From an uncultured Pseudomonadales bacterium (GTDB taxonomy: Bacteria > Patescibacteriota > Microgenomatia > UBA1400 > Chazhemtobacteraceae): DNA of 64,000 nt. Of this stretch, positions 31,539 through 61,013 are shown piece after piece. The position numbers were made by a program, and so were the translations under genes. Positions within the stretch are counted from its first letter, which is position 1, and each line of letters opens with the position of its first letter. The stretch spans positions 209,543 through 273,542 of the forward strand of contig CAZUBK010000002.1 of assembly GCA_964618725.1 (NCBI GenBank), given 5' to 3'. A model generated the notes under the pieces. It worked only from the letters and a program-made list of their open reading frames with translations, made no database searches and had not been told where the DNA came from.

Positions 31539-31543
31539 AAGAA

Positions 31544-31891: not shown

Positions 31892-31916
31892 GGTTTGAGT
31901 TTACACCCGAGATTGA

Positions 31917-32060
31917 TTACACAGTGAGCTTGTGACGGCCTTTGGCGCGTCGACGCTTGAGAACGGCTTGACCGGCTTTGCGGAACATACGAGCGAGAAA
32001 TCCATGAACTCGAACGCGTTTCTTTTTCTTGGGCTGGTAAGTTCGTTTAGTTTTTGCCAT
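31917..32060 (-). CDS. rpmH: 50S ribosomal protein L34
   Basis: Manual translation gives [47 protein letters not shown]. Absent from the ORF track because it is under 60 aa. Confidence 0.9.
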
Positions 32061-32286
32061 GGAGAATTGTGATTAATTATCTTGATTAAGACAAGGGAAT
32101 TTTACCAAAAAGCGAGTACAAGCACAAGATGTGTTCAGGAGAATAAACTTGGCCACAAGAAGAGGAAATTGTGGATTACTTTTTTAATATTCAGCTTAGT
32201 TGGCTTATAGGAGGCTGATCGGAGAAAAGGCTCGTTTTGTTTGGGTCAACTGGGGGTTGGAATAGTGTGGAAAACTTCTTAGAGTA

Positions 32287-33654
32287 GTGCCCATGTGGGA
32301 CAAAGATCAGTTATGGCAGACAGTATCAGGAGAATTGGAAGTGGGGTTCTCGGGAGCGACTTTTAGTAGTTGGATTAAACCTTGTTTTATTATCTCATTG
32401 GCCGAGATGGATAGTGAGCGAATTTTGGTGGAGTTGGCTTGTTCGACGCCATATCATGTGCAGACTATAGACGAGAAATACTACACCCAGATAAAGAGGG
32501 CAATAGAATCTCAAACAGGAAGAAAATGTGAGTTGGCACTAGTAGTAAAACAGAAAGAGAGCGAGGGGAAGAAAAAGGAGGAGGTGGGAACGCTATTTGC
32601 TCAAGAAGAGAAGATAGATGACAGAGATCTTTTGATTGGTTGTGGACTTAATCCCAAGTTCACCTTTGATAACTTTGTGGTAGGGAGCTCGAATAATCTG
32701 GCTTACTCGGCGGCAAAGGCGGTGGTAGAGATGCCAGGAGGGAGACATAATCCACTATTTATCTACGGTGGGGTGGGGGTAGGAAAAACTCATTTAATGC
32801 ATGCTGTGGGAAGAGCAATGATGGAGAGGGGATATCCAAAAGTTAAGGCAGTTACCTCAGAGCAGTTTACAAATGAGTTTGTGGCTACACTTAGGAGTAA
32901 AATGGCGGATAGCTTTAAACAAAGATATCGAGGTGTTGATACTTTATTAATTGATGATATTCAGTTCATTGCGGGAAAGGAGCAGACCCAAGAGGAGTTT
33001 TTCCATACCTTCAATCATCTTTATGCCCAGAGTAAGCAGATAATCTTGACATCGGACAAGAAGCCACAAGAGATTACTGGATTGGAAGAGAGATTGTCGA
33101 GTCGGATGATGGGGGGACTGATGGTGGATATTGGATTACCTAACTTTGAAATGAGATTGGCGATTCTAAAACAAAAATGTAGTGAGATTAATATAGAGCC
33201 GGAGGAGGGGGCACTCGACTTAATCGCGACAAACGTGAACACCAACTCGAGAGAACTAGAAGGACTACTGATGAGACTGGTCAGCTTGGCCTCGATGGAA
33301 GGGAGTCGATTGAATCAGCGGATTGTAGAAAAAGAACTGGGAGTAAGGGGAACCAGGTTAGACAAGAGACTTAGACCACAAGAAGTGATCTCGTTGATTG
33401 CTAAACAATTTGAGTTTAAGAACAAGGATCTGGTGGGAGCAAGCAGGAAGGCAGAACTGGTCAGGGCGAGACACGTGGCAATGTATATCTTGCGAGTAGA
33501 AATGGGGCTGACACTACAACAGGTGGCATCGTTGATGGGGAGGAGTGACCATACGACGGTGCTTCATGCGGTAGACAAGGTAGAAAAGGAATTTATGATT
33601 AATTTGGAAACGAGAGAACAGGTGATGAGGGTAAAGCAGCAACTGTATCATTGA
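32287..33654 (+). CDS. dnaA: chromosomal replication initiator DnaA
   Basis: AAA+ P-loop GGVGVGKTHLMHAVG. C-terminal DNA-binding helix-turn-helix region. Confidence 0.95.
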   Translation: MPMWDKDQLWQTVSGELEVGFSGATFSSWIKPCFIISLAEMDSERILVELACSTPYHVQTIDEKYYTQIKRAIESQTGRKCELALVVKQKESEGKKKEEVGTLFAQEEKIDDRDLLIGCGLNPKFTFDNFVVGSSNNLAYSAAKAVVEMPGGRHNPLFIYGGVGVGKTHLMHAVGRAMMERGYPKVKAVTSEQFTNEFVATLRSKMADSFKQRYRGVDTLLIDDIQFIAGKEQTQEEFFHTFNHLYAQSKQIILTSDKKPQEITGLEERLSSRMMGGLMVDIGLPNFEMRLAILKQKCSEINIEPEEGALDLIATNVNTNSRELEGLLMRLVSLASMEGSRLNQRIVEKELGVRGTRLDKRLRPQEVISLIAKQFEFKNKDLVGASRKAELVRARHVAMYILRVEMGLTLQQVASLMGRSDHTTVLHAVDKVEKEFMINLETREQVMRVKQQLYH

Positions 33655-33977
33655 GAGAAGAAGTTAGGATATGGATATGGATGTGGATGAAATGGGGAGG
33701 GTGGTGGAAATGTGGGGAAACCAGAGAAATATGCACATTTAAGAGTCTTTTATACACGAGATAATCCACAGGAACTGCGGATTGTGCGGGAAGAGAAACC
33801 CGAAGAGACAAGCAGGGAAAAACTAGAATGGTTTAGCAGTAAGATGGATATATCTATTATAAATTGATTTTTAGCAAATCCATCAGGCAAGAGTTAGCTT
33901 GACTTTCAACAAATCCACAGCGACTATTATTAGGACAACAAGATTTTTTAAAAAATATAAATTTACAGAACAAAAGA
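33655..33977. promoter_or_regulatory. candidate oriC (DnaA-box cluster + AT-rich unwinding region) between dnaA and dnaN
   Basis: DnaA-box-like 9-mers TGTGGATGA (33683), TAATCCACA (33762), AAATCCATC (33875), AAATCCACA (33910). AT-rich tract at 33941-33975. Confidence 0.5.
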
Positions 33978-35075
33978 TTGAAAGTAAATGTTTTGGCGGA
34001 GAATCTAAACAGGGCAATGAGTATTACATCTCGCGTGGTGGCTAGTCGAGCTCAGTTGCCGATTTTGAGCAATGTTTTACTTAGAGCTACAAAGGAGGGA
34101 CTTCAGGTCTTGGCAACTGATTTGGAGATTGGAGTGAGGCTTTGGGTTGGTGCGAAGGTAGAAGAGGAAGGGGAAATATGTATCTCGGCTCGAGTTTTGG
34201 CGGAGTTTGTAGGGACATTGTCTTCGGGGGTGATTGAGATGGCGATTGAAAAAGAGAACTTGGTTCTGAAGGTAGAAGGATCGACGGCAAGGCTTCCGGG
34301 AGTAGACGGAGGGGAGTTTCCGGCGATACCGAGTTCTAAAAGTAAGGTGGATTTGGAACTGCCAATAGAGAGACTTGTGGAGATTGTGAACACGGTTTCT
34401 TTTGCGGCGGCGAGGGATGACAGTCGGCCAATATTCACTGGAATATTGTGGAAGTTAGAGGCAGGTAAGTTGACCTTGGCAGCGACTGATGGGTACAGGT
34501 TGAGCGTGGATGAGCTCAAGGTGGAGACGGATAAAACTGAAGCATTTGTGTTACCGGTTAGAGCATTGCAAGAGGTGGTCAAGGGAGTGGAGAAGGGAGA
34601 GAAAAAAGTGGGTTTGTATGTAGATTTAGAGAAACAACAGGTGATCTTTAAGGCAGGGGGGACAGAATGGGTGAGTCGGCTCTTGTCGGGAGAGTTCCCT
34701 CCATACAATCAGATTCTGCCGAGTGGGTTTGTAACAAAGATGACAGTGGGTAGGCTGGAATTGGGTGAAGCAGTGAAGCGGGCACTCATTTTTGCTAAGG
34801 AGAGTGCCAATATTGTGAAACTTAGTATTGGGGAAGGTAAATTGGTGGTGAGTGCAAATGGAGCAGCTGGTGGAGGAGAGACGACGATGGAGGTGGAGAT
34901 GGAGGGAGAATCAGAGACAGTGGCGTTTAATGGACGGTATGTCGTGGACTATCTGAACGTAGCAGAATCAGAAGATGTTGTCTTTGAGAGCGCAGGCCCG
35001 CTTAAGGCTGGGCTGTTTAAGATGCCAGGGAAGAAATTATTGCATGTAATCATGCCGGTTAGGGTGCAGGGTTAG
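33978..35075 (+). CDS. dnaN: DNA polymerase III beta sliding clamp
   Basis: 365 aa. N-terminal MKVNVLAENLNRAMSITSRVV...PILSNVLL is typical of DnaN. Follows dnaA. Confidence 0.92.
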   Translation: MKVNVLAENLNRAMSITSRVVASRAQLPILSNVLLRATKEGLQVLATDLEIGVRLWVGAKVEEEGEICISARVLAEFVGTLSSGVIEMAIEKENLVLKVEGSTARLPGVDGGEFPAIPSSKSKVDLELPIERLVEIVNTVSFAAARDDSRPIFTGILWKLEAGKLTLAATDGYRLSVDELKVETDKTEAFVLPVRALQEVVKGVEKGEKKVGLYVDLEKQQVIFKAGGTEWVSRLLSGEFPPYNQILPSGFVTKMTVGRLELGEAVKRALIFAKESANIVKLSIGEGKLVVSANGAAGGGETTMEVEMEGESETVAFNGRYVVDYLNVAESEDVVFESAGPLKAGLFKMPGKKLLHVIMPVRVQG

Positions 35076-35076: not shown

Positions 35077-35634
35077 CTAATCGATTCCGGGAGGGGTGGT
35101 AGTGAGTAGGTAGGGAGATAGGGTTTGAAATTCTTGGAGGGTAGTGGGAGTAAAGTACCAGATCTCGACGACTTTGCCAGAGACTTGATGTGTGCCCAGG
35201 GCAATGCCGTGACTTGGGAAGATGTAAACAGGATAATAGGGACCAAGGTAGTCGGTGTAAAGAGTCGCGGCTGGTCGACCTAGCTTGGGGGTAAGATCCC
35301 GAATATTGGTATCTTCTGTGAGTTTGGTTTTTTGGATAAGGAGAGTAACTTCGTTGTCGTCGACGATAGCAACATGGGGATCCTGGACATAATCTGAGGT
35401 GAACTGAAGGGAGGTTTTGCCATTGATTGTGTCTTGGGAAATGGGGTTGCCAAGAACGGCAATGAGATCGGCGGGAGTAGAGATATTGGGGCGGATGTTT
35501 TGATAGGTGAGAGTGGGTTGAGGAAGTGGGGTAAGGAGACGGAACATAATACCAATGACGATGAGAGTAATAAAAATGAGGGGAGTGTAGAATCTGGGGG
35601 AACGGGGATTGAGTTTGGATAAATTAAGTTTCAT
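35077..35634 (-). CDS. bitopic membrane protein, hypothetical (VirB8-like topology; speculative)
   Basis: One N-terminal TM, then ~150-aa extracytoplasmic domain. Start abuts the stop of the 978-aa gene. Confidence 0.45.
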   Translation of the reverse strand: MKLNLSKLNPRSPRFYTPLIFITLIVIGIMFRLLTPLPQPTLTYQNIRPNISTPADLIAVLGNPISQDTINGKTSLQFTSDYVQDPHVAIVDDNEVTLLIQKTKLTEDTNIRDLTPKLGRPAATLYTDYLGPYYPVYIFPSHGIALGTHQVSGKVVEIWYFTPTTLQEFQTLSPYLLTTTPPGID

Positions 35635-38571
35635 TTAGTTTCCTATTGTATATTTTCTAGCAAAACGCATGTGATTTGGATAAGAGGCAGAGACGTTGCA
35701 ATAACTGCCATAGTTGTCGCAGGCGACGAAGACACCAAAAGATTCAGCAAGGTCTTCGGCAATTGGGACGGCGGTAGGATTTTCGTCCCAAGGATAAGTG
35801 TTGAGTAAGCCTTCGCTGCCGATAATGAAAAGAAAGTCTTGGCGGAGCGGAGTGGAGCGATCGGCAAAGTGACCAAGCTCGTGAGCGAGGGTATAGCCGA
35901 CTTTCCAAGGGTCTAGACCAGAAAAGCAGTCATTGAAGTTGTTAAACCAGATGGCATTACCGGTGGCAATTCCGCAAAAATCGACATTGACAGGGTCGTA
36001 TCTTAGATTGATGGTGCCAGTTTTGCAGGCATTGTTCATGAGGATAGGATATCGGGAAGCGATAATAGTAGCAGCATCAGCGATAGCTTTTTGGTGTTCG
36101 GGGACTGGACCCCAGGTATTATCAAACTTAAGACAAGAGATGGTTGGTGGAGCAATGCCTCCACCTCCGGGATAGATACCAGTGCCCCCTGGGCCAACAC
36201 CGGACTCAAGTTGGACGAGGGTGGAAAGGAGGGGGGCAATGTTGATGGTGGGGATGTAGACGAAGAGATAGCCGGCGATGATAGCGGCAAAGATGATGGG
36301 AGCGAGGAAGACGATGGAGATGGAAGACATGATAACAAGAGGGAAGGAGGTAACGGCAACTAAAACAGCACCAGCCCCACCTGCGAGCATTTTCCAGTCG
36401 AAGTCCCAACCAAAGATATTGCGCCAGACGGACTTAAAGCTTTTCCAGAGAAAACCGATGGTTTTTTCAACAACGAAGCCAAGGACGGCACCGACAATGA
36501 TTCCGATAGGACCAGCAAGTGCACCAAGAGTTCCTCCGGCAGCGGCAGCGGCGGTGGTGGTAGCAGCTGTCGTGGCACCTTTGGCGACGAGTTGAGCGGC
36601 AACGGTTTTGAGGCCTTGTTTGATACCTTCTTTGGTGATAGTTTTGGTCGCTTGGCCAAGGAGTTTGACACTGACCTGTTTACTTAGAGATATACCTTGA
36701 ACAAAACCCTTAATGAAACCTCGACCTTCGGCTTGGCCGACTTGTTTCATGACCCAGTTGCCGACAGATTGAGTGGGATGGGAGACAAATCGAAAGGTGG
36801 ATCTTATTGGTTGAGGTAGGGATGAGGCAACCTTTGAGGTGGCAACTTGATATGAAGATGGTTTTTTGGGACGACTGATGTCATGATCGAGACTGGGGAC
36901 TCGGCCCTCGTTTTGGCGGATTTGAGATTGTTTGAGGACTGTTCTGTACAGGTGAAACTGTCGATTCTTGCCGTGTTGTTTTTTTAGCGAGGTAGAGGCT
37001 TTGGCTACATGTCTTGGGGTAATGCCAAGATTACTGAAGCCTATACTACCTGCTAGATGGGGTTCTCTAATGGTTCTAAAAAAAGCTTCTGCTTCAGTGG
37101 CCTTAGCAGTAGGAATGGAGTGAACTTCCGTAGGATTCTGTTTAATTGTGATTTCACGAGTTTCTTTTTGAAGAGAGGCAACGTCTTTGTTTATGTCGTC
37201 GATTACTCTGTTGGCTTCACCTGACTCGATAAGGCGAACAATGGCTTGTTGGTTTCCAGTATTGGTTTTCTCGATGTGTTCTTGGAGAGCGGATTGTTCT
37301 GGATAGGCCTTGTCGGCCTCATTGAGGAGAATACTGTTCTGAAATTTGGCCACTTCTTCGGTGGCTTTCTTAGTAGCTTTAGCAAAACTAATTATTTGTA
37401 GATCTTGATATTGAACAAGAGTGGCAGATTCTGGTTCGAGAAAACTTGTTTTACGAAAGGTGTCAATATCATCGATGGCGTTGATAACTCTGGGATCTGT
37501 GGGAAGAACTTGGGGAAGGTGAGATTGTATTTGTTGATCGAGCGTATATATTTCAGATTCAGGATCGAGACTGGCGGCTATAATGGCGGCATCTTCAGTG
37601 GATTCTATAATGTCGAGAGATGAAAGAAGGGAGAGCGTTTGGATGTTGGCGGTTGAATCAAGTCCTAGGGGGGTGAGGATTTCTTTGGCGAGTTCTGTAT
37701 TGAGAAACTCAGGATCAGTTCCAGGTTTGGTACTGCTGACAACGACCATGGCGAGTTCTTGTTGATGCTGGTCCAGTTCGGCACGTTTTTGTTTGAGAAG
37801 ATTTAGGGCAATTCTTTTTTGGACAAGTTTAAGAATTAATTTTTTTTGGCCATCAGTCTCAAACTTGATGCGGGTTTCTATTTCCTCATTGAGGGCTTGT
37901 GCTTCACTTAAAGCAGAGAGTTGTTGGGCCATTAGAGCTTGATCGACGGTGCCAGAGGTGGTTAGATCTTCATGGTCTTGTTCTCCTGTAGGTGTTTTCT
38001 CACCTCCTTGGGTTTCTTCTTCAAATGTTTCACCTACTTTCTCTTCTTCTTGCTTTGGGGGTTCTTCTTCGGTTTCTGTTTCATCAATACGGGCGACTAC
38101 GGTGTCAGATGGAGTAATGATCTTAGTGTCGTCGTAATAATCGATGCCAGTCTTAAGATTGCTAACTTTTATTGAGTCGCCTACCTGTTTTAGATTGGAG
38201 ACATCTCCGTTTACTAATGTGGGGAGTAATTGAGGATAGCCTTCAAGGGTTAGTTTTTCGAGATGTTGAATTACATCTTTGGAAGAGTCTTGACCAGATA
38301 GGTGAATGGGAATATTGGCCTTAATTTTTTCAAACGACATTTTGTAAAGGCGTCGGGCGAAGGATTTGACTGTATCATCACTCCATCCCTGTCCATGGGG
38401 ATCTTCACTTTTGGACAGTTCCATAACATAACTAAGGGCTTGATTGAATTTACTTTCACTTGGCCTTAAGTTGCTGATAGGAGCTTGGATATAGGAAGCA
38501 ATAACCTGAAGTGCACCCTGAATTCTTTGATCATATTCAGTAATACCTCTCTTTTTGGGATCGTAGGGCAT
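35635..38571 (-). CDS. large coiled-coil/membrane protein with C-terminal HExxH zinc-metallopeptidase-like domain
   Basis: Acidic coiled-coil N-terminal region. Two long hydrophobic segments (aa ~650-760). C-terminal GYTLAHELGHF motif. Lies 42 nt downstream of VirB4. Confidence 0.65.
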   Translation of the reverse strand: MPYDPKKRGITEYDQRIQGALQVIASYIQAPISNLRPSESKFNQALSYVMELSKSEDPHGQGWSDDTVKSFARRLYKMSFEKIKANIPIHLSGQDSSKDVIQHLEKLTLEGYPQLLPTLVNGDVSNLKQVGDSIKVSNLKTGIDYYDDTKIITPSDTVVARIDETETEEEPPKQEEEKVGETFEEETQGGEKTPTGEQDHEDLTTSGTVDQALMAQQLSALSEAQALNEEIETRIKFETDGQKKLILKLVQKRIALNLLKQKRAELDQHQQELAMVVVSSTKPGTDPEFLNTELAKEILTPLGLDSTANIQTLSLLSSLDIIESTEDAAIIAASLDPESEIYTLDQQIQSHLPQVLPTDPRVINAIDDIDTFRKTSFLEPESATLVQYQDLQIISFAKATKKATEEVAKFQNSILLNEADKAYPEQSALQEHIEKTNTGNQQAIVRLIESGEANRVIDDINKDVASLQKETREITIKQNPTEVHSIPTAKATEAEAFFRTIREPHLAGSIGFSNLGITPRHVAKASTSLKKQHGKNRQFHLYRTVLKQSQIRQNEGRVPSLDHDISRPKKPSSYQVATSKVASSLPQPIRSTFRFVSHPTQSVGNWVMKQVGQAEGRGFIKGFVQGISLSKQVSVKLLGQATKTITKEGIKQGLKTVAAQLVAKGATTAATTTAAAAAGGTLGALAGPIGIIVGAVLGFVVEKTIGFLWKSFKSVWRNIFGWDFDWKMLAGGAGAVLVAVTSFPLVIMSSISIVFLAPIIFAAIIAGYLFVYIPTINIAPLLSTLVQLESGVGPGGTGIYPGGGGIAPPTISCLKFDNTWGPVPEHQKAIADAATIIASRYPILMNNACKTGTINLRYDPVNVDFCGIATGNAIWFNNFNDCFSGLDPWKVGYTLAHELGHFADRSTPLRQDFLFIIGSEGLLNTYPWDENPTAVPIAEDLAESFGVFVACDNYGSYCNVSASYPNHMRFARKYTIGN

Positions 38572-38613: not shown

Positions 38614-40476
38614 TTAAACTTGGCTTTGTTCGAGCTGTCTTTGTGCTTGCTGTTCTTCTTGGCGGGCGAGAATTTCGGAGGGTTTGGTAGTGACGAGGGC
38701 GTGTTCGTCGGGCGAGGCGACAACACGCAGAGCGACGTGGTTTTGGCCGGCAAAGAAGATGCCTTCACCAACATTGGCAGCGAGAAGGAGGTGGCGTTCA
38801 CCTTGGGAGAGATAGAAGGTTTCACCAACGGAGTCGATACCGGCAGGAGACTGTTTCATGAGGAACTGAAGGGCAGAGTTGGTGACGATAGCTTTGCCGT
38901 ATTGGGAATTTAAAAAGTCTTCGGCATTTTGAGAGATGATAGTAACGCCGAGGTAGTATTTGCGGGCGCGTTTGACGAAGCCCTGGAGGACTTTGGCAGA
39001 GTCTTCGTGGCGCATAAGGTACCAAGCTTCATCGACGACGAGGAGACGTTTTTTGAGTTGTTTACGGATCTTGGTCCAGATGAAGTCGAGAATCAGGAAC
39101 ATGACGATGGGGCGGATTTCGTCAGCGAGTTCGCGGAGGGTGAAGACGGTCATGGCGGAGTCGATCTCGACATTACTTTGTTGGTCGAAAATGCCTTTGA
39201 GGGCGCCCTTGACATATTTTTCGAGGCGGGCGGCGATGCCGGAGGCTTCAGGCTCTTCCATGCCAATGAGGGCTTTGTAGAGGTCTTCCATTCGGGGGGG
39301 TTCGAGGTGGTGAGTAGAGGGATCTTGGGTAATACCTTTTTGTTGGTAAGTGAGGACGAGGGCGCGATTTAGGATGGCGTCTTCATTGGGAGAGAGGGCA
39401 CCAAGCATGATCTTGAGAAGGGATTGGAGAAAGAGATATTTGTAGCTCATTTCATCGGCGGTGGAAGTCTTGGGATCAGGTAACTGAAAGGGGTTGATTT
39501 TGTGCTCTGAGGTGACGGAGAAGGCGATATAGTTGCCGCCGACGGCGCGACACATCATTTCGTATTCGTTTTCCGGGTCGATGATGATGGCTTCGGTGCC
39601 GAACATGACGGAGCGCATGAGTTCTAATTTAACGCTGTAACTTTTACCGCTACCGCTAGTAGCGAGGACGAGCATGTTGGCGTTCTCTAATGAAAAACGG
39701 TCAAAAATGACCAAAGATTCGTTATGCTCATTGATACCATATAGGATACCTTGGTTGTCGGTGAGTTCGGAAGAAGTGAAGGGGAAGGTCGTGGAGAGGG
39801 CGGTAGTATCCATATTTCTAATAATGAGGAGACGATCTTTACAGTAAGGAAGGGTACTTTTGAAGGCGTCTTCTTGAGAGAGAGAGGCGACTTTGCTGAC
39901 GATGATGAGGGAGGCAAGAAGACTTTGAACTTGGTTGGTGATGGTTTCAAGTTCTTTAGTGGTATCGGCGGAGATGGTGATGTAGAGGGAGAACTGAAAG
40001 AAGCGCTCAATCCCTTTAACGAGTTGCTCTTGGAGGACTTTGGCGTCTTCGAGCTGGGCTTGGGTGGCGGCTTGGGGGATGCGGCCGCGTTCGATATCGG
40101 CGCCAATTTCGGCTTCCATTTCGGCGATGCGACGACGGAGCTGTTCGAGTGTGCCTTTGACCTCGACGGGGTAGACGAACATGGAGATATCTATACTGTG
40201 GTCGAAGTTGATGAGAGGGGAGAGCCAATTGGCGGAGACGTAACGGGGGTAACCGGCGACAAAGAGGGTGCGGATATATGTATTACCGATCTTGAGGAAG
40301 CTGAAGTCGACTTCAATACTAGGTGGGGCGAGGATATCCTGGATGTTGACTTCACCGGTAATATTGAGGGTAAGATCGGAAGGGGAAGTGGAGAGAGTTT
40401 GGCCTTTAGGAGGATTGTTCAGGGGGGCTGAGGGAGTGGTGTTTGTTGATGGAGTTTTTTTGAGAAAGGGCAGCAT
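38614..40476 (-). CDS. VirB4/TrbE/PrgJ-family type IV secretion ATPase (ATPase portion)
   Basis: Walker A LATSGSGKS, Walker B LLVVDEAW. N-terminal YIRTLFVAGYPRYVSANWLSPLI block typical of VirB4. Confidence 0.8.
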   Translation of the reverse strand: MLPFLKKTPSTNTTPSAPLNNPPKGQTLSTSPSDLTLNITGEVNIQDILAPPSIEVDFSFLKIGNTYIRTLFVAGYPRYVSANWLSPLINFDHSIDISMFVYPVEVKGTLEQLRRRIAEMEAEIGADIERGRIPQAATQAQLEDAKVLQEQLVKGIERFFQFSLYITISADTTKELETITNQVQSLLASLIIVSKVASLSQEDAFKSTLPYCKDRLLIIRNMDTTALSTTFPFTSSELTDNQGILYGINEHNESLVIFDRFSLENANMLVLATSGSGKSYSVKLELMRSVMFGTEAIIIDPENEYEMMCRAVGGNYIAFSVTSEHKINPFQLPDPKTSTADEMSYKYLFLQSLLKIMLGALSPNEDAILNRALVLTYQQKGITQDPSTHHLEPPRMEDLYKALIGMEEPEASGIAARLEKYVKGALKGIFDQQSNVEIDSAMTVFTLRELADEIRPIVMFLILDFIWTKIRKQLKKRLLVVDEAWYLMRHEDSAKVLQGFVKRARKYYLGVTIISQNAEDFLNSQYGKAIVTNSALQFLMKQSPAGIDSVGETFYLSQGERHLLLAANVGEGIFFAGQNHVALRVVASPDEHALVTTKPSEILARQEEQQAQRQLEQSQV

Positions 40477-41352
40477 TTAGATTTGGTTAACACTAATTGG
40501 TTGTGTCGTTGTCGCCGAGGCCAAAGGTGGGGAAGTAGGAGTAGGCGATATCGTTTTCTGGGTGGAAGTCGTTTCGTCAGGGCTGCCTGGAGCCTTAAAG
40601 ACAATATTGGTAGGTTGAGGAGGGGGAGTGGATTCTCCTGGGAGGATTTTGGAGCTGATTTGAATTGGAGTAACGACTGGAGCGACTTGGACGGCAGTAG
40701 TTTCGAATTCTTTGGGATTGACCAGGAAGGGTGGAGTAACAACATCTGGGTTGTAGATACGATAGAAGAGAGTGAGGAGCTCTTGGGTAGTTAGTTGGCG
40801 GGTTTGGAGACCCAGACGGGCAAACTGACGAATGAGGTGGTCACGGCGGGGGTAGAGGGAGATCTTGGCTTTCTCGAGGATGTAGTTGTCTTCGAAAGTA
40901 GGCTTTTGGGGAGCAGGGGCGAGGGGGTTAAAGGATTTGACAGAGAGACCAAGTTCGATAGCAGTAAAGGGGACAATGACGTAGAACTTTTTTTCCATGA
41001 CTTTGTTTTCTTTGACGAGGCTTTTGATGTAGGTGCGATATTTGATGATCTGCTCTTTGATTTTTTGAGAGCGGATGGTTTCGAGTTGGGTGTCGAGGCG
41101 TTCGACGTAGTCACTTATATCTTTTCTGGTGGAGCGAAGAAGAACCTGGACGGTGAAGGAGAGTGAGTTGAGCAGGGCGGCGTAGCCGTAGATGGTGGCG
41201 TCTTGTTCTTCCTCGGAGAGGAGGCCGAAGTTGATAGCGGAGGTCTGGAGGACGATGGCGACGGAGCCGTCTTTGAGAATGACAAGATGATCTTTAATGG
41301 TATGGATGTCGAGATGGCTTTGGGTGGTTGCCTTGATGGCTTTATCGGACAT
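40477..41352 (-). CDS. VirB4 N-terminal domain-like protein (separated from ATPase ORF by one in-frame TAA)
   Basis: LKDGSVAIVLQTSAINFGLLSEEEQDATIYGYAALLNSLSFTVQVLLRSTR resembles the VirB4 N-terminus. Pro/Thr-rich C-terminal tail. Stop at 40477-40479 is immediately followed by the ATG of the next ORF. Confidence 0.6.
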   Translation of the reverse strand: MSDKAIKATTQSHLDIHTIKDHLVILKDGSVAIVLQTSAINFGLLSEEEQDATIYGYAALLNSLSFTVQVLLRSTRKDISDYVERLDTQLETIRSQKIKEQIIKYRTYIKSLVKENKVMEKKFYVIVPFTAIELGLSVKSFNPLAPAPQKPTFEDNYILEKAKISLYPRRDHLIRQFARLGLQTRQLTTQELLTLFYRIYNPDVVTPPFLVNPKEFETTAVQVAPVVTPIQISSKILPGESTPPPQPTNIVFKAPGSPDETTSTQKTISPTPTSPPLASATTTQPISVNQI

Positions 41353-41375
41353 GCTCTCAGTATACCTAAACAGGA

Positions 41376-41534: not shown

Positions 41535-42494
41535 TTATGTAGTGGCTTTGATTTGGAGTGGGGGGAGGACTTGGCCTTCAAGTTTGAGATCAAAAGTGGG
41601 GAAAGTGTGACCTTCTTTGTCGGCGGCGATTTGGTAACTACCGTCGTCAAGGGGTTTGGCAAAAAGGAATTGACCGAGTTTGTTGCTCTTGGTGGCGCGT
41701 AGTGTCAGGCCATTTTGGAGGATCTCGACGATGGTGGAATCGAGAATCTTGTTGTCAATGGTTAAGGTCATCCCGATTATGGTATTGGGTGTGGTGGGTG
41801 GGTGAGGAATAGGGAGGTTGCTACTAAAGGTAGCGGAAGTTGAGAGTGGAAGAGGAGAAGTCGAGTGTTCTGTAGGAAGGGAGAAGACCGGTATGGGGGC
41901 AGGACGAGGAGAGGGAGGAAGTCGGGGGGGTTCCTGCTCGATATAGAGTGGGGTGGAGACGGGAGTGGCAACTTCTTTAGGGGCTGTGTGGAAAGAGGGA
42001 GATGGTGGGACGGTTTCTGGAATGATGGGAGTAGAGAGGGAGGAGAGAGGCGAAGGAACTAGAGGAGGAGAAACTAGGGTGACAGTAGAAGGCGGGGTGA
42101 CTGGTTTTGGTTCTGGAGCGACGACGGTAATCTGAGATGGGAGAGGGGTGACTAGAGAAGGGGGAGGTAGTGGTGGAGAAGAGAGTTTTGCGAATGGGGA
42201 AGTAGTTTTCTGCCAAGTGTAGACGGTGGGGGAATAGATGGAACGAAAAAAGGCAACGATCCATTGATCAAGAGGGCGGCCTTCGATGGGGAGAAAGGCA
42301 ATTGAGGCGCCGATGGTGACAGAGATGGCAATGGCAGGCCACTTGAGGAAGAAGGGGAGGCCGGAGGCGTAGAAGAGGAGACCAACGATGATACCACCGG
42401 CGAGTTGGAGGAATTGTTTGAGGGTCATGTCACCGACGAGACGGAATTGGTACTGGGTGACGTTTTGGGGGATGGGGTGTTGTTGAACGGGCAT
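41535..42494 (-). CDS. PrgI/VirB3-like membrane protein with Pro-rich extracellular extension
   Basis: N-terminal LKQFLQLAGGIIVGLLFYASGLPFF...AISVTIGASIAFLPIEGRPLDQW (two TM). Sits upstream of VirB4, as PrgI/VirB3 does in Gram-positive T4SS. Long P/S/T-rich C-terminus. Confidence 0.45.
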   Translation of the reverse strand: MPVQQHPIPQNVTQYQFRLVGDMTLKQFLQLAGGIIVGLLFYASGLPFFLKWPAIAISVTIGASIAFLPIEGRPLDQWIVAFFRSIYSPTVYTWQKTTSPFAKLSSPPLPPPSLVTPLPSQITVVAPEPKPVTPPSTVTLVSPPLVPSPLSSLSTPIIPETVPPSPSFHTAPKEVATPVSTPLYIEQEPPRLPPSPRPAPIPVFSLPTEHSTSPLPLSTSATFSSNLPIPHPPTTPNTIIGMTLTIDNKILDSTIVEILQNGLTLRATKSNKLGQFLFAKPLDDGSYQIAADKEGHTFPTFDLKLEGQVLPPLQIKATT

Positions 42495-42556: not shown

Positions 42557-43009
42557 TTAGTCGGTGAAGGATTTAAGAGAAGTATTTTTGAAGACGAGTT
42601 CAAAATCGGAGTCAAAGGTGACGAAATGTTTGATCTTGTGATGGCGGATGGTGAGGAGGTGATAGGCGTCACGGGGTGAGAGCTTGAATTTGTCCATAAG
42701 GAGGGGTATTTGGAGTTGGGATTTGATAGAGAAAGGGGGATTAACTATTTCGAGATATGGCAAAGAAAGGATCTTTTTTAGGTAGTTGTAAATACTTTTG
42801 TTTTGGATGTTTGTTTTTGTTTTGTGATAGTGGATTTTTCGAAGGGAATGCAAGAATTCATCAAGGCATAATGGTGATATACATAAAATCAAGTTTTGTG
42901 AAGCAAGTTTTGTAATGAGGGAAATGCTTTTTTGGTGGTTGAGAGAGTCTTCCTGAAGAAAGCTAACGAGAACGTTTGTATCAAGATAGCAGCTATTGAT
43001 AGATTTCAT
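42557..43009 (-). CDS. vapC: PIN-domain toxin VapC
   Basis: YLDTNVLV N-terminal acidic motif and FVTFDSDF C-terminal motif. Start ATG overlaps vapB by 17 nt. Confidence 0.7.
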   Translation of the reverse strand: MKSINSCYLDTNVLVSFLQEDSLNHQKSISLITKLASQNLILCISPLCLDEFLHSLRKIHYHKTKTNIQNKSIYNYLKKILSLPYLEIVNPPFSIKSQLQIPLLMDKFKLSPRDAYHLLTIRHHKIKHFVTFDSDFELVFKNTSLKSFTD

Positions 43010-43256
43010 ATGATTTATCAATAATCTGGTTAATTTCTTCTGGAGTGAAGTCTCTTCCACCTTTGAAGCCACCGGCGAGGCGTTTGACTAGTTCTTCAGG
43101 AGTTTCTTTGGATATCTTAGGTTCCTGAACGTGAAGAATTATTTGAGACCGTTTTGGTTCGAAGGTAAGTTTACTACCTAGGGGAATATTGAGATCCTTG
43201 GGGAGAATGGTGGCAGTACTTTTGTTTAGTTGGAAGACGGTTGAGGCAAAAGACAT
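42993..43256 (-). CDS. vapB: AbrB/MazE-type antitoxin VapB
   Basis: FQLNKSTATILPKDL SpoVT/AbrB-like N-terminus. 87 aa. Immediately upstream of the PIN toxin. Confidence 0.65.
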   Translation of the reverse strand: MSFASTVFQLNKSTATILPKDLNIPLGSKLTFEPKRSQIILHVQEPKISKETPEELVKRLAGGFKGGRDFTPEEINQIIDKSYEIYQ

Positions 43257-46103: not shown

Positions 46104-47807
46104 TTATTTTTTCCCTAAAAGACCAGCAGCAGCATCAACCGCTTTTTGTCCCGCGGCGCCATACTTTTGTGCTCCAGAGACAAAGCCGCCTAAGGGACCA
46201 CCAGCACTATCGCGAACAGCTCTTCGGCCGAGAGGTTCAGCAATATGCGTGGATGCCCATCTTTCACCACGGTAGCCTTGATTAAGGGCTTCTCCAATCG
46301 CACTACCATATTTGAAGGCAGGGACCTTTAGGGCGTCTCTGATCATATCTGCGACCTTGGGGGTAAGGAAAATAAGAGCGTAAGCCAGAAGGGAACCGAC
46401 GCCGACGGCAGAGTTGCTACCAAGTGGCCAACCTTCGGTTGAACCAGCGAAATAGGGGGGAACCCACATGTCTTCGTTGTTAATCGGAGAAGAAATGCCC
46501 ATGAAGGAGATGGCAAGCATAAACATTATGGTGATACTGGGAAAAACAGAAATATGGGCAGCAAGGTTTCTGATCCAACCAGAAAAAGATTGACTGCCAG
46601 GAAGGACATTGCCAAGAAGAATTATTGGGGAAAAGATAATACTGATGACAACAGCAGCGTAGGCTTGGATGGCCATGAAGGCAATTTTCAAAAGAACAAA
46701 GAAAAAGGCAATAATAAGAATGAGCTTAATGATGGCACCAATCGGAGTGACGGTAAACATAGCGCCATAGAGGATTGTGGGGAGACCTGTGAGAAGTGAC
46801 GCAATTGAGGAGACTCCGGCGGTAAAAAGAATCTCATAAAGGATTTGAAAACCAAGAAAGGCTCCGCCGAAAGGGGTTTGTCCGGTGATGACCTTAACTG
46901 CATAATCAGTTCCTGACTGGGTACTTAGATCTAGGGGGATATTGAGTCGGGAGAGAACTGGTTGAATTGAATCAGCGAAGGGAATCTGCATGCTAATGTC
47001 AATAATTTGGGCGCCTTGAAGAATACTGACGATGAAAGCGGGGAGGAGGAGAGAGAGGTCGATAATGAACCCAGCGATAGCATAAGAGAAAGTGATGGCG
47101 AGGAGAGTGACAACAAGTTTGGGAATGGCTAACTCAAAGTTAATAACAGTTTGGGCGTTGATTTTGGTACGAAACATTAACATAAAACCGTACAAGACGA
47201 AAATGAGAATGAACATTGTGTAGGCGATGTTACGCATGCCACTCCACGCAGGCAGAATAGGGAGAAGCTTATTAAAACCAAGACCGGCACCCGTGGCTTG
47301 AGCATAGGCGGGTTTAACTAAACGATGTTTCTCTAGGTTGTTGTTGATATGGGCAAGATAGCTGACTCCTGAGGCGGGGGGAGAAGTGATGACGGAAGTG
47401 AGCATTCGTGTTAAAGAAGGGATGGCTGAGGCATCGGCAACTCCGAGCGAAAAGGTGTCAGCAGGATTTTCGGGGATAAATTTGGTCATGAAGTCTAAAA
47501 GAACAATATCTGAAAAACCACGGAAGGCTCCTCGTTGGGTCAGACCATCTGATTGAGAGAAAGTATCAAGGGTGAAGGTATCGAAAATTGCTTGTAAGAC
47601 TGTCTTGTCTGGACATTTTCCTGAATACCAGGTTTCAAGATTCATAACATCCCCAGAACGGGAGTTGCAATAATCTTGGATATCACTAAAGGTATTAACA
47701 ACATCGGCAGCAGCTCCGGCTGGGCCTATGGCTGCAAAAGTGGGCTTGGAGGAAGAGATGAAAAGAAAAGTAGTAAAGACGAGAGTATAGAAAAGACGGC
47801 GGAGCAT
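46104..47807 (-). CDS. VirB6/TrbL-like polytopic membrane protein (candidate T4SS channel component)
   Basis: Signal peptide, ~170-aa extracytoplasmic N-domain, then 6 or more TM helices. Context next to other T4SS-like genes. Homology not verified. Confidence 0.5.
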   Translation of the reverse strand: MLRRLFYTLVFTTFLFISSSKPTFAAIGPAGAAADVVNTFSDIQDYCNSRSGDVMNLETWYSGKCPDKTVLQAIFDTFTLDTFSQSDGLTQRGAFRGFSDIVLLDFMTKFIPENPADTFSLGVADASAIPSLTRMLTSVITSPPASGVSYLAHINNNLEKHRLVKPAYAQATGAGLGFNKLLPILPAWSGMRNIAYTMFILIFVLYGFMLMFRTKINAQTVINFELAIPKLVVTLLAITFSYAIAGFIIDLSLLLPAFIVSILQGAQIIDISMQIPFADSIQPVLSRLNIPLDLSTQSGTDYAVKVITGQTPFGGAFLGFQILYEILFTAGVSSIASLLTGLPTILYGAMFTVTPIGAIIKLILIIAFFFVLLKIAFMAIQAYAAVVISIIFSPIILLGNVLPGSQSFSGWIRNLAAHISVFPSITIMFMLAISFMGISSPINNEDMWVPPYFAGSTEGWPLGSNSAVGVGSLLAYALIFLTPKVADMIRDALKVPAFKYGSAIGEALNQGYRGERWASTHIAEPLGRRAVRDSAGGPLGGFVSGAQKYGAAGQKAVDAAAGLLGKK

Positions 47808-47844: not shown

Positions 47845-50800
47845 TTAATTGCTCCAATCTATGGAGGGAAGTATTTTGGAGTAGTCGAGACCTTCATTGT
47901 TTACCTGGGTTGCCTTGTAGGCAGCATTGATTTGAGCAGGCCAATTGAAGGTGCCGGGTTGACTGTCGGTATAGGTACAGGAAAAGTCGTATTGAGGTGG
48001 CTCTCGGCGACAGGCGGCGTCGCCACAAGCAAAAATCTGAAAAAATTCGAGGATGCTGGCGCGGTCAGTGGGGGAATCGAGAGCACGACAATCGAGGTGG
48101 TTACTTTGGGTGGAGTAGGCGTATTGAAGAGAAGTAAAGCATTCAAGTTGAGCGGTTAGATTATTGTTGATTCCGCCGCCACAACCGAGGTCGTCAACGG
48201 GGTTGAACTTGGCATAGTTACTGGCCCCTGACTCTTCAATCCAGGTAGCCATGGTCATAGCCGGATCCATCCCTTTGACTTTGGCGATGCTGATGACGTA
48301 GTTGTAGCAACGACGGATGTTTTCCTCACTGGTAATGGCATTGGGAGCTTTGGGGTTCCAGACGGTTCCCCCAAGGGCAGTAATAAGGGCATCTACTGGT
48401 TTGACATTATGACCGGAAGGTTCGGGGACGCCGTCACAGAAAGCAAGAGAGGTGTTGGTAGCTGAGTCGCTTGCTTCTGGTGGAATGGAGAAGTCAGGGG
48501 GTATATATGAGGCGGAGACAAAAGAACCGAGATCTTCACAGTCTTCTGACTTGCCAGTTTGAAGGCCAGTGGGAATGAGCCAGAAGTTTCTGAGACGACA
48601 GAGGTCGGATTCGGCACGGCCGCCGAGACGTCTAACGGGAGCAGTGCTTTTATCGGTGATGCCCGCGGTGGCACGGTGTTTGAGATATTCGTCGCCGGTA
48701 ATTTCGGCGGAGAAGTAGGCGGAGGCTTGACCGAGCATGTAGGGGGTGTCGGGTTGGTCCATTGGTTCATAAGTAGCACCGGGGATGAGGCGAGAGGGAT
48801 ACTCAGGGTCTACACTTAATTTGCTGGGGAGCATTTGCGAATACAACGAAAGATTGGTACCGTCTTCGAGGGGTTCGGAGATGAGGCGATTAAGATCAGT
48901 TATTTTGGGATTATTAAAGACGGCGATAGTACGGCCGAAATTGCGGAAAAGTAGACCGCTACTGGCTTCGCCGACGGACTCGGCTTGCATGGTAGTTTTA
49001 TATCCCGAAGTATAGTAGAGGACTGCTCCGGTGAGGGGATTTTTGACGGGGCAACTTTGATCTTCTTTGATTTCTTCGGTTTTGACGGGGACGAGGAGAG
49101 ATTGATCGAGGACGTCGGGGAATTCGTCACCGGGGAGTTTGTCATATTTACGGGTGGGGAGCTTGAGAGGAAAAGTTGGAGGAGAGGAGAGGCTCATGTT
49201 TTTCTCGTCATCTAGATCGCGGCAGAGGTTGTCATAGGCCCAAATATCGACAGTTCGATCAGCGAGGGGGACAAAGACCTGGTCGGATTCAGTATTGAAG
49301 TCAAGGGTGCCATCTTGTTTGTAGGTGATACTGTAGTTATCGGCGGTGTAGAGCTTTTTCTCTCTTTCAGCCAGAAGCCAACTGGGAGAAATGGTATTTA
49401 AGATGCCGCCGACGGGATCACCAATGATGTCACGAAGGGCTTGGATGTATGGCAGGTTTTCGTTGAGGATGCCGACGGTGGTGGCAAAAGTGGTGGGATC
49501 AACGTAACGCAGGGCTAAGTAGCCGCGGACGTTGTCGAAGACAAAAGGCTGAAAGGCATCATACATAGCGCGAGTTTCTGGGTTGAGTTTGGCATATCTT
49601 TCGGCAGCGCTATTACAGACAGGGAATTTAGTTAGACACTTAGGGAGGGAATTGATTAGTTCACTGATGGTAAAGGTGGAGACGACAGGAGGGATGAGGC
49701 TTTCGTCGGTGGAGGTTACAGAACAATCGGGATTGACGATGGCGCCAGTAGAGTCAAGGATATTGACACCGTCGTAGATGAGCCATTCACCGGTGGCAGT
49801 GGGGCAGGCATTTCTAATAAGGGGGGTAATGGCGAGAGGGTGTGACGGACCGGAGGTAATAAAGGCAAGGACGGCATTGAGATCTAGGTCGCCAGTTTTT
49901 GGCTCGAGTCCGTATTCGGTGAAGACGTGAGGTTTACCAGTGGTACCAGTGATCTGTTGTTCCCAGAGCCAGGATTCGGTACCACAACGGATAGATGCAA
50001 AAGCACAGGAAGAAAGAGAATAGACGTTGTGGGCAGTGTAGTCAGCGGCTTGGTAGGCCTCCTTAGCGGTGGCGAGAAAGATGCCGGCGTCACGCTCAGG
50101 ATGAGAGGTATTCATGGGAGCGGCGGCTATTTTGAGGCCACTGAGCCCAGATTTGAAGAAGAGGAGCTGTTCTTTGTAGGTAGTACCACATTGAGCTAGG
50201 TCGCTACAGTTGTATTCTCTGAGATCATTTAGTTCATTGCCGAAGATGACAATATCGGTATTGCGAGTAAAGACGGCAGAGAGGCGAGTGGCAAAGTCTT
50301 TGAGTTGGGTGAGGTAGCCAATTTCGGTGTTTGGTTGTAGGCCGGTGATACGGATAAGGCGGACAGTAGCTTGACTGTAGAGTTGGTTGTAGCGTTGCAG
50401 GGTTCCATCATCTGAGTTGATGGCAAGTAGAAAAGTGACGGGTTTGTTGGCGGCGGCGGTGCCAAAGAAGTCAGCTGTATGACCGTAGCCAATGTTGGTG
50501 CCAGTATTGGAGGGAAGAGGCGGATTGTTGGAGTCTGTCGGGGTAGGGGTGACGCTTGGTGTGGTACCGGGTTCTGGTATATCAGCTGGATCGACAAAGG
50601 GGAAGGGAGAGTCAAAGATGGGTTCGGTGAAGGTGCGTTTGGTTTCTATGTCAACCGGACTTAAGCGATTGAAGATCTCGAGGGCACGATGGAGGAGGTT
50701 ACTGATGTCACCGGTGAGTCCACTACCGACTTTGTAGCGGTGAAACATCCAGGCTTTAGCATTCATTTGTTGTTCTTGAGTAAGGAGCCGCCAGAAAGTG

Positions 50801-61004: not shown

Positions 61005-61013
61005 CAAGTAAAA

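What the first reader, a model, noticed from the sequence alone, without database searches (positions are those of the whole stretch)
40450..40510. VirB4 homolog split into N-domain and ATPase ORFs by a single in-frame TAA embedded in a Pro/Thr/Ser-rich linker
The 291-aa ORF carries the VirB4 N-terminal signature (LKDGSVAIVLQTSAINFGLLSEEEQD...VQVLLRSTR) and ends ...ISVNQI-TAA. The very next codon is the ATG of the 620-aa ORF, in the same frame, which carries the downstream VirB4 blocks (YIRTLFVAGYPRYVSANWLSPLI, Walker A and B). Both sides of the stop are low-complexity P/T/S-rich. Possible explanations: genuine two-piece VirB4 with translational coupling (UAAAUG); a recent nonsense mutation tolerated in a linker; programmed stop-codon readthrough; or an assembly error.
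Basis: seen in the sequence. Interest (0 to 1): 0.7.

Follow-up and report, generated by a model that had tools for sequence, protein, structure and literature searches.

The report
Ordinary two-gene VirB4 (TrsD plus ATPase)
The stop codon "splitting" this secretion-system ATPase is the normal boundary between two separate genes (a TrsD-like N-terminal piece and VirB4) that are separate in nearly all related Patescibacteria and already described in the literature, so it is ordinary.

Summary
On the minus strand, a 291-aa ORF (40477..41352) ends in TAA (40477-40479). The next codon, ATG (40474-40476), starts a 620-aa VirB4 ATPase ORF (38614..40476). "In frame" adds nothing: a zero-nucleotide gap always gives the same frame.

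This is not a disrupted gene.
- All 120 best homologues of the 291-aa protein are stand-alone proteins of 205-410 aa.
- Only 1 of the 150 best 50%-identity cluster representatives is fused to the ATPase.
- In all 58 loci (57 relatives plus the window) holding both genes, the N-piece gene ends in its own stop.
- The gap to virB4 runs from -35 to +359 nt, and 43 of 58 pairs are in different frames.
- The closest relatives have +75 nt (four in-frame stops), +71 nt and -8 nt junctions, and one has a toxin-antitoxin pair after the gene.
- The VirB4 N-terminus MLPFLKK is conserved, so the ATG is the real start.

The two proteins match complementary parts of full-length VirB4 models. The pair is the TrsD-VirB4 arrangement already reported across Patescibacteria (PMC12102498), here beside prgI and dnaA/dnaN.

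Nonsense mutation, readthrough and assembly error are all unlikely. The window's virB4 has no SD and lacks the TATACT box its relatives carry, so translational coupling is the likely, untested, mode of expression. Interest is low.

The parts
40477..41352 (-). trsD-like gene (291 aa plus TAA stop): a stand-alone homologue of the N-terminal part of VirB4 (Pfam PF26593 'TraC-like')
   Evidence: ORF. NCBIfam gives TrsD/TraD NF041427 at E 2.4e-6 (profile 21-200/201), VirB4_plasma profile 101-234/894 at E 3.8e-8, and CD1110 VirB4 profile 12-128/752. There are 2805 homologues; the best 120 are all stand-alone, 205-410 aa, and tagged PF26593.
40747..41352 (-). Conserved folded core of the TrsD-like protein (residues 1-202)
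   Evidence: Homologues align over residues ~1-206, and 64 columns are invariant in alignment A1. The AF2 model has mean pLDDT 74. The top 14 Foldseek PDB hits are all TrwK/VirB4 chains of R388, with probability 0.57-0.98 but weak E-values of 0.01-0.14.
40480..40746 (-). Pro/Thr/Ser-rich low-complexity C-terminal tail of the TrsD-like protein (residues 203-291)
   Evidence: Composition is P 19%, T 17%, S 10%. Tails vary in length (0 to ~500 aa) and in sequence among homologues.
40477..40479 (-). TAA stop codon of the trsD-like gene
   Evidence: TAA is also the stop of this gene in 47 of the 58 loci analysed.
40474..40476 (-). ATG start codon of virB4, directly abutting the TAA
   Evidence: The N-terminus MLPFLKKTPST is conserved in relatives whose virB4 follows a non-coding spacer: L067 MLPFLKKKPST, L064 MSLLPFLSKKP, L063 MQLPFLKK, L061 MRIPFLKK.
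38614..40476 (-). virB4 gene (620 aa plus stop): a T4SS ATPase lacking the first ~180-240 positions of canonical VirB4
   Evidence: NCBIfam CD1110-family VirB4 scores 367 bits (cut-off 325) over profile 184-734/752. Other matches are VirB4_plasma 293-877/894, TIGR00929 239-724/792 and TraC-F 273-784/800. Pfam P-loop_TraG scores E 3.7e-27. The PDB match 4AG5 (VirB4 C-terminal domain) scores E 2e-46.
40333..40476 (-). Thr/Pro/Ser-rich low-complexity N-terminal stretch of VirB4 (residues 1-48), after the conserved MLPFLKK
   Evidence: The natural fusion P0146 aligns only from residue 49 onward.
39640..39654 (-). Walker A (GSGKS, residues 275-279)
   Evidence: Read directly from the sequence.
39028..39045 (-). 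Walker B (LLVVDE, residues 478-483)
   Evidence: Read directly from the sequence.
41359..41364 (-). TATACT, a -10-like box 6 nt upstream of the trsD ATG; it is placed as for a leaderless mRNA (inferred)
   Evidence: The same hexamer lies 5-9 nt upstream of virB4 in 40 of 59 loci examined (58 relatives plus the window) but is absent in front of the window's virB4.
41535..42494 (-). prgI / VirB3-like gene (319 aa) upstream in the same cluster
   Evidence: Pfam PrgI E 3.2e-8. Gene order prgI - trsD-like - virB4 is the same in L064 and L067.
35077..38571 (-). Downstream cluster genes: a 978-aa protein (HELGH motif) and a 185-aa protein, joined by a second TAA-ATG abutment (stop 35635-35637, ATG 35632-35634)
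   Evidence: The relative L064 has a DUF8128 protein in the same position.

Best explanation
These are two genuine, separately encoded genes of the chromosomal, conjugation-type (MPF-FATA-like) type IV secretion system of a Patescibacterium related to Collierbacteria (class Microgenomatia). The upstream gene encodes a TrsD-like protein: a ~200-residue fold homologous to the extreme N-terminal part of VirB4, followed by a disordered Pro/Thr/Ser-rich tail. The downstream gene encodes a 'short' VirB4 that starts at a conserved MLPFLKK N-terminus. It lacks exactly the part that TrsD supplies, and it carries the rest of the N-terminal half plus the Walker A/B ATPase. The split is ancient. It is shared across Patescibacterial classes and, according to the literature, with the staphylococcal pGO1 TrsD/TrsE type. 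In this genome the usual intergenic spacer has shrunk to zero, so the TAA of trsD touches the ATG of virB4. Shown: the gene boundaries, the conservation of the two-gene state, complementary homology to full-length VirB4, and the existence of a rare natural fusion. Inferred: the two proteins assemble non-covalently into a VirB4-like unit that docks on PrgI/VirB3. Also inferred: here virB4 is co-transcribed with trsD from the TATACT box in front of trsD and translated by termination-reinitiation at UAA-AUG. The reason for that second inference is that the window's virB4 has neither a Shine-Dalgarno-like sequence nor the -10-like TATACT box that precedes virB4 in most relatives. The confidence of 0.9 is for the two-gene reading; the coupling step alone is about 0.6.
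For: Stand-alone state: one search found 2805 homologues of the 291-aa protein, and the best 120 are all stand-alone (205-410 aa, PF26593). In one search, the 150 best cluster representatives all carry the domain at residues ~1-206. Only one (P0146, 787 aa) is fused to the ATPase.

Junctions: all 58 loci with both genes (Collier-, Woese-, Chisholm- and Cerribacteria, Paceibacterota, Saccharibacteria) have a stop after the N-piece gene. Gaps run from -35 to +359 nt. Only 15 of 58 pairs share a frame (about 1/3, as expected by chance), and only 3 of these have a single stop between the genes.

Closest relatives: +75 nt with four in-frame stops; +71 nt; an 8-nt overlap; and a toxin-antitoxin pair following trsD. 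The VirB4 N-terminus MLPFLKK is conserved.

Complementarity: N-piece = CD1110 profile 12-128/752 and VirB4_plasma 101-234/894; ATPase = 184-734/752 and 293-877/894. The two matches are collinear and do not overlap.

Fold: the top 14 PDB fold hits of the N-piece model are all TrwK/VirB4.

Expression: there is no SD, no -10 box and no terminator at the window junction, while TATACT lies 5-9 nt upstream of virB4 in 40 of 59 loci examined and in front of the window's trsD.

Literature: PMC12102498 reports TrsD as the most abundant T4SS component in Patescibacteria. It found 2272 homologues, 1664 of them next to virB4, with remote homology to the VirB4 N-terminus and essentiality in Ca. Southlakia epibionticum. 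It also reports T4SS clusters near dnaA, as seen here.
Against: No reads, transcript data or protein data are available for this genome, so the identity of the TAA codon itself and the mode of virB4 translation are not directly verified. The match to the NCBIfam TrsD model is weak (27.5 bits against a cut-off of 200). The Foldseek E-values are only ~0.01 with TM-scores of 0.34-0.45, and the local Pfam copy did not contain PF26593. Physical assembly of the two proteins is inferred from homology and from one natural fusion, and has not been shown. Coupling is inferred from the absence of signals; a weak internal promoter or a non-SD initiation mechanism cannot be excluded.
Confidence: 0.9

Rival explanations
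1. A recent nonsense mutation, tolerated in a linker, interrupted a formerly single ~911-aa VirB4 gene.
For: The two ORFs are in the same frame with one stop between them. A natural fused homologue exists (P0146).
Against: The two-gene state is essentially universal among relatives, and 43 of 58 pairs are in different frames. The four closest relatives all have separate genes with different junctions. The ATG opens a conserved N-terminal motif, MLPFLKK, that in relatives follows non-coding spacers. The one fusion found lacks the low-complexity tails, so it is not the ancestor of this arrangement.
Confidence: 0.02
2. Programmed stop-codon readthrough of the UAA produces a full-length fused VirB4 alongside the two pieces.
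For: The same frame and a single stop make a fusion product physically possible. A fused homologue shows that a fusion can probably function.
Against: The in-frame single-stop arrangement is not conserved: it occurs in 3 of 58 loci, so no selection for readthrough is visible. The general view is that UAA is read by both release factors and is the least leaky bacterial stop. No downstream structure or recoding signal was found, and the same TAA-ATG junction also joins two other genes in this operon.
Confidence: 0.02
3. An assembly or sequencing error produced the TAA: the true codon is a sense codon, and this genome has a fused gene.
For: This cannot be excluded without reads. The exact protein is known from one contig only and could not be re-located in the contig index.
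Against: An error would have to create by chance exactly the gene boundary that all relatives have, immediately before the conserved VirB4 start. No homopolymer or repeat at the site would favour a miscall.
Confidence: 0.03
4. There are two genuine genes, but virB4 is expressed independently: from an internal promoter inside the trsD tail, or by direct non-SD internal initiation, and not by termination-reinitiation coupling.
For: In 40 of the 59 loci examined, virB4 has its own TATACT box placed as for a leaderless transcript, so independent expression is the common state in the clade. Many genes in the window lack SD sequences, so SD-independent initiation must be common here.
Against: In the window, positions -12 to -7 read AACCAA, with no -10-like hexamer and no sigma-70-type match on the minus strand near 40480-40560. 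The zero-nucleotide UAA-AUG junction is the classic arrangement for reinitiation (general knowledge).
Confidence: 0.25

Closest known systems
TrsD-VirB4 gene pair of the Patescibacterial T4SS (Quinonero-Coronel et al. 2025, Microb Genom, PMC12102498; essential in Ca. Southlakia epibionticum per Wang et al. 2023 as cited there)
   Same: The gene order prgI/virB3-like, trsD-like, virB4 is the same, and the cluster is chromosomal and lies next to dnaA/dnaN. The TrsD-like protein is homologous to the VirB4 N-terminus, and the organism is a Patescibacterium (paper).
   Different: Nothing essential differs. In this genome the intergenic spacer is zero nucleotides and virB4 lacks its own -10-like box. 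The paper, as far as I read it, does not spell out that the Patescibacterial VirB4 lacks exactly the region TrsD supplies.
TrsD/TrsE (TraD/TraE) of staphylococcal conjugative plasmids pGO1/pSK41 (MPF-FATA subclass; NCBIfam NF041427)
   Same: A small protein homologous to the VirB4 N-terminus is encoded just upstream of the VirB4-type ATPase. The window protein hits the TrsD model over 21-200/201.
   Different: The similarity is only remote: 27.5 bits against the family cut-off of 200. The window protein has an added Pro/Thr/Ser-rich tail, and the system is chromosomal with no relaxase seen nearby. I could not fetch the pSK41 record to compare junctions.
Full-length single-chain VirB4 (CD1110 family, Mycoplasma ICE VirB4, TrwK of R388)
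   Same: The two window proteins together cover the models collinearly. Walker A and B are present. The fold of the N-piece resembles TrwK. A natural fused relative, P0146, exists.
   Different: Here the protein is encoded as two polypeptides with low-complexity ends at the break point.
Translationally coupled abutting genes (UAA-AUG / AUGA junctions) in compact bacterial operons
   Same: The spacing is zero with no SD, and a second identical junction lies in the same operon. Relatives show ATGA and 8-nt overlaps.
   Different: Coupling has not been tested here.

Membership tests
VirB4-type T4SS ATPase (MPF-FATA / CD1110-like) | P-loop ATPase domain with Walker A and Walker B, scoring above the family threshold | tested here: met
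   NCBIfam NF045971 scores 367 bits against a cut-off of 325. Pfam P-loop_TraG scores E 3.7e-27. GSGKS is at residue 275 and LLVVDE at residue 478. PDB 4AG5 scores E 2e-46.
VirB4-type T4SS ATPase (MPF-FATA / CD1110-like) | Complete N-terminal region within the same polypeptide | tested here: not met
   The 620-aa ORF matches only 184-734/752, 293-877/894 and 239-724/792 of the models. The missing first part is matched by the separate 291-aa ORF, at 12-128/752 and 101-234/894.
VirB4-type T4SS ATPase (MPF-FATA / CD1110-like) | Encoded in a T4SS cluster with a VirB3/PrgI-like gene | tested here: met
   A PrgI-family gene lies at 41535..42494. Relatives have the same order.
TrsD / 'TraC-like' (PF26593) stand-alone VirB4 N-terminal homologue | Sequence match to the family model | tested here: inconclusive
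   NCBIfam TrsD NF041427 scores E 2.4e-6 but only 27.5 bits against a cut-off of 200. The identical database protein P0001 and all 120 listed homologues carry a precomputed PF26593 hit (named). The local Pfam copy gave no PF26593 hit, so I could not re-score it.
TrsD / 'TraC-like' (PF26593) stand-alone VirB4 N-terminal homologue | Homology to the N-terminal portion of VirB4 | tested here: met
   The protein matches the N-terminal positions of two full-length VirB4 models, at E 3.8e-8 and 2.4e-6. It is 52% identical to residues 1-199 of the fused VirB4 P0146. The top 14 Foldseek hits are TrwK/VirB4, though the E-values are weak.
TrsD / 'TraC-like' (PF26593) stand-alone VirB4 N-terminal homologue | A separate gene immediately upstream of virB4, conserved among relatives | tested here: met
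   This holds in 58 of 58 loci with both genes and in 149 of the 150 best representatives. It agrees with the 1664 of 2272 reported in PMC12102498.
Programmed stop-codon readthrough / recoding site | In-frame single-stop arrangement conserved among relatives | tested here: not met
   Only 3 of 58 loci have a same-frame junction with a single stop, and 43 of 58 are in different frames.
Programmed stop-codon readthrough / recoding site | Detection of a readthrough product | not testable with these tools
   This needs proteomics or ribosome profiling.
Pseudogene / recent nonsense disruption | Close relatives carry one uninterrupted ORF | tested here: not met
   The closest relatives, L064-L067 (64-73% identity over the aligned part), all have separate genes.

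The most novel reading that the evidence does not exclude
The split may be functionally exploited and not neutral. On this reading, the TrsD-like module is a separately dosed VirB4 N-terminal subunit. Its variable disordered tail, which in sister Microgenomates lineages reaches ~500 aa and ends in a conserved LPP[IL][AP]EI peptide, would tether or dock it to the ATPase or to another T4SS part. Lineages would then switch between independent, leaderless-type transcription of virB4 (TATACT 5-9 nt before the ATG in 40 of 59 loci examined) and obligatory 1:1 translational coupling, as in this genome, where the box is lost and the spacer is zero.
Probability: 0.25. Interest if true: 0.4.

Novelty: already known. 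Interest (0 to 1): 0.12.

Why it matters
It matters mainly for annotation. The junction should be annotated as two genes, trsD-like and virB4, and not as a pseudogene, a frameshifted gene or a recoding event. The TrsD-like protein should be recognised as the missing N-terminal part of the short Patescibacterial VirB4.

There is also a modest biological point. The Patescibacterial T4SS is reported to be essential for the epibiotic lifestyle. Knowing that its VirB4 is a two-chain enzyme with disordered ends at the break, and that one natural fusion exists, gives a simple handle for structural and genetic work, such as co-expression, fusion constructs and AF-multimer modelling. The variety of junctions (overlap, abutment, spacer with its own -10 box) is a small natural experiment in how stoichiometry of the two halves is achieved.

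Tried and rejected
- Local Pfam scans of the 291-aa protein, its 215-aa core and the homologue P0005 gave no meaningful hit. The precomputed PF26593 label could therefore not be re-scored.
- A PDB sequence search with the N-piece found nothing. Only the fold search pointed to VirB4, with weak E-values.
- The pSK41 record (AF051917) is not in the plasmid collection, so the staphylococcal TrsD/TrsE junction was not compared directly.
- The promoter/terminator scan gave counts no higher than shuffled controls and nothing at the junction.
- A literature search for 'split VirB4 / separate gene' returned nothing relevant. A search for 'leaderless' plus CPR gave no statement about leaderless genes in Patescibacteria.
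- An alternative genetic code was considered and rejected. TAA, TGA and TAG all end long ORFs in the window (18, 9 and 7 respectively), and TAA ends the same gene in 47 of the 58 loci analysed.
- I considered that the window's last trsD codons (GTTAACCAAATCTAA) derive from the ancestral GTTATACTTAAATC pre-ATG motif. The resemblance is suggestive, but the alignment is too short to claim.
Full report
**1. Observation**

The finding lies on the minus strand. A 291-aa ORF (40477..41352) ends ...PISVNQI-TAA, with the TAA at 40477-40479. The adjacent codon, ATG (40474-40476), opens a 620-aa ORF (38614..40476). Walker A (GSGKS, residue 275) and Walker B (LLVVDE, residue 478) are in the 620-aa ORF. 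Both sides of the junction are Pro/Thr/Ser-rich: the tail at residues 203-291 is P 19%, T 17%, S 10%, and VirB4 residues 1-48 are T 17%, P 15%, S 10%.

"In-frame" carries no extra information, because a stop codon directly followed by a start codon is always in the same frame. An identical TAA-ATG abutment joins two other genes of the same operon, the 978-aa ORF 35635..38571 and the 185-aa ORF 35077..35634.

**2. What the two ORFs are**

- The 620-aa protein is a VirB4-type T4SS ATPase. It scores 367 bits against the NCBIfam CD1110-family model (cut-off 325). It aligns only to profile positions 184-734 of 752. It likewise aligns to 293-877/894 of the Mycoplasma-ICE VirB4 model, 239-724/792 of TIGR00929 and 273-784/800 of TraC. 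Pfam gives P-loop_TraG at E 3.7e-27. The closest solved structure is the VirB4 C-terminal domain 4AG5, at E 2e-46.
- The 291-aa protein hits the N-terminal positions of the same full-length models: 12-128/752 and 101-234/894 (E 3.8e-8). It also hits the stand-alone TrsD/TraD family model over 21-200/201 (E 2.4e-6), far below that model's cut-off.
- The two ORFs are thus collinear, non-overlapping pieces of a canonical VirB4. The break falls within the N-terminal half, not between "N-domain" and "ATPase".
- An AF2 model of the 215-residue core is of moderate quality (pLDDT 74). Its 14 best PDB fold matches are all TrwK/VirB4 chains of the R388 T4SS, at weak E-values of ~0.01-0.14.

**3. Is the split a lesion or the normal state?**

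- A search of 5.8 billion proteins found 2805 homologues of the 291-aa protein. The best 120 are all stand-alone proteins of 205-410 aa. All carry Pfam PF26593 ('TraC-like'; name), and those named come from Collierbacteria or Patescibacteria.
- An exhaustive HMMER search of 1.84 billion cluster representatives found 1727 hits. In the best 150, the domain always sits at residues ~1-206.
- The longer proteins carry Q/N/P/T/S-rich low-complexity tails, not an ATPase. Only one, P0146 (787 aa), is a true fusion. Its residues 1-199 are 52% identical to the window's N-piece, and its residues 213-768 are 65% identical to VirB4 residues 49-603. This rare fusion is Rosetta-stone evidence that the two pieces work together.
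- I fetched 63 loci from GTDB representative genomes: Collier-, Woese-, Chisholm- and Cerribacteria, Microgenomates, Paceibacterota and Saccharibacteria. I then located both genes in each.
- In all 58 loci that hold both genes (the window included), the N-piece gene ends at its own stop. The distance to the virB4 start ranges from -35 to +359 nt, most often 25-30 nt.
- Only 15 of 58 pairs are in the same frame, the one-third expected by chance. Only three (L010, L055 and the window) have a single stop between the genes.

**4. The closest relatives**

The closest relatives (64-73% identity) tell the same story.
- L064 has a 75-nt AT-rich spacer with four in-frame stops before virB4.
- L067 has a 71-nt spacer.
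- L066 has an 8-nt overlap.
- In L065 the trsD-like gene is followed by an antitoxin/PIN pair and not by virB4.

The VirB4 N-terminus is conserved: MLPFLKKTPST in the window, MLPFLKKKPST in L067, MSLLPFLSKKP in L064, MQLPFLKK in L063 and MRIPFLKK in L061. The ATG at 40474-40476 is therefore the authentic, ancient start codon.

These data exclude a recent nonsense mutation. They also remove any comparative support for programmed readthrough. An assembly error is very unlikely, because it would have to recreate by chance the boundary every relative has.

**5. Context and literature**

The cluster runs prgI/VirB3-like (41535..42494), trsD-like, virB4, then a 978-aa protein and a 185-aa protein. 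It sits directly beside dnaN (33978..35075), dnaA (32287..33654) and yidC.

Quinonero-Coronel et al. 2025 (PMC12102498) describe exactly this.
- They found 2272 homologues, 1664 of them next to virB4.
- A TrsD homologue next to virB4 in Ca. Southlakia epibionticum ML1 is listed as essential.
- T4SS clusters often lie near dnaA.

The same paper notes that TrsD is otherwise known from the pGO1 subclass of MPF-FATA systems. The arrangement is therefore already known. What this analysis adds is explicit complementarity of the two pieces, the junction survey and the natural fusion.

**6. How it most likely works**

*Shown:* there are two genes, they are complementary parts of VirB4, and the two-gene state is conserved.

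*Inferred:* the TrsD-like core assembles non-covalently with the short VirB4 to complete its N-terminal region. In R388 that region contacts VirB3 and the membrane (general knowledge of the TrwK structures).

*Expression:* trsD in the window is preceded by TATACT 6 nt before its ATG (41359-41364). Several other genes in the window show TATAAT, TATACT or TACAAT at -12 to -14 and no Shine-Dalgarno sequence. This geometry fits leaderless transcripts.

Of the 59 loci examined (58 relatives plus the window), 40 have an exact TATACT 5-9 nt upstream of virB4, typically GTTATACTTAAAnc-ATG. This suggests virB4 often has its own promoter. The window's virB4 has neither that box nor an SD, and no terminator or promoter-like site lies at the junction. 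Co-transcription with trsD and termination-reinitiation at UAA-AUG is therefore the most likely mode here (about 0.6). Independent SD-less initiation is the alternative (about 0.25).

**7. Verdict**

It is a known two-gene VirB4 (TrsD + VirB4) of the Patescibacterial T4SS, with a compact zero-spacer junction. Novelty: already known. Interest: low.

Side observations are listed separately: leaderless-type -10 boxes, the long tails with a conserved C-terminal LPPIAEI peptide in sister lineages, an intein in one relative's VirB4, and a toxin-antitoxin module that moves around the cluster.

Noticed in passing
window 41359-41364 (-); also upstream of 46104..47807(-), 47845..51858(-), 7686..10919(-), 20567..22624(+), 1339..1938(-); virB4 upstream regions in loci L002-L058: -10-like hexamers (TATACT, TATAAT, TACAAT) lie 5-9 nt upstream of start codons that have no Shine-Dalgarno sequence. 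This is the geometry expected for leaderless mRNAs. An exact TATACT precedes virB4 in 40 of 59 loci examined (typically GTTATACTTAAAnc-ATG), although the flanking spacers have diverged. I found no statement about this in the CPR literature searched.
   Followed up: partly
window 35632-35637 (-): A second same-frame TAA-ATG abutment lies in the same operon, between the 978-aa ORF (35635..38571) and the 185-aa ORF (35077..35634). The 185-aa protein has no Pfam hit. I did not test whether this pair is also a conserved two-gene unit.
   Followed up: partly
proteins P0144-P0215, homologues of window 40477..41352: Many TrsD-like proteins of other Microgenomates carry 100-500-aa Q/N/P/T/S-rich low-complexity tails. 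These tails end in a conserved C-terminal peptide, LPP[I/L][A/P]EI[K/T/E]. The window's tail ends QPISVNQI, which resembles that peptide only loosely. This may be a docking motif.
   Followed up: no
L066 1148-3655 (GCA_964561445.1): The VirB4 of a close relative carries an intein (Intein_splicing plus a LAGLIDADG homing endonuclease), giving a 1212-aa product. Its trsD and virB4 genes overlap by 8 nt.
   Followed up: no
L065 959-1652; window 42557..43256 (-): A small antitoxin-like gene (84-87 aa) plus a PIN-domain toxin pair sits downstream of trsD in L065, but upstream of prgI in the window. The two small proteins are visibly similar (MTFTATAFQLGTSTVVTLPKGL... versus MSFASTVFQLNKSTATILPKDL...). 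This looks like a mobile TA module moving within the T4SS cluster.
   Followed up: partly
window 30526..35075: yidC (30526..31284 -), dnaA (32287..33654 +) and dnaN (33978..35075 +) directly flank the T4SS cluster. The cluster therefore sits at the replication origin, as reported for Patescibacteria in PMC12102498.
   Followed up: yes
window 35635..38571 (-): The 978-aa protein downstream of virB4 combines three features: a region resembling the ribosomal L25/TL5 C-terminal domain (residues 82-164, E 2e-8), several hydrophobic segments, and a C-terminal HELGH zinc-peptidase-like motif. The relative L064 has a DUF8128 protein at the same position. It may be the VirB6-like or hydrolase component.
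   Followed up: no
window 41535..42494 (-): The PrgI/VirB3-like protein is 319 aa, much longer than the 91-position Pfam domain. It has a long Pro/Ser/Thr-rich middle region and a C-terminal globular part. Low-complexity P/S/T linkers are a shared feature of several proteins in this cluster.
   Followed up: no
window 60605-61007 (+), 61755-61838 (+): A tmRNA gene (90.6 bits) and a tRNA gene were found by the Rfam scan. They are unrelated to the finding.
   Followed up: no
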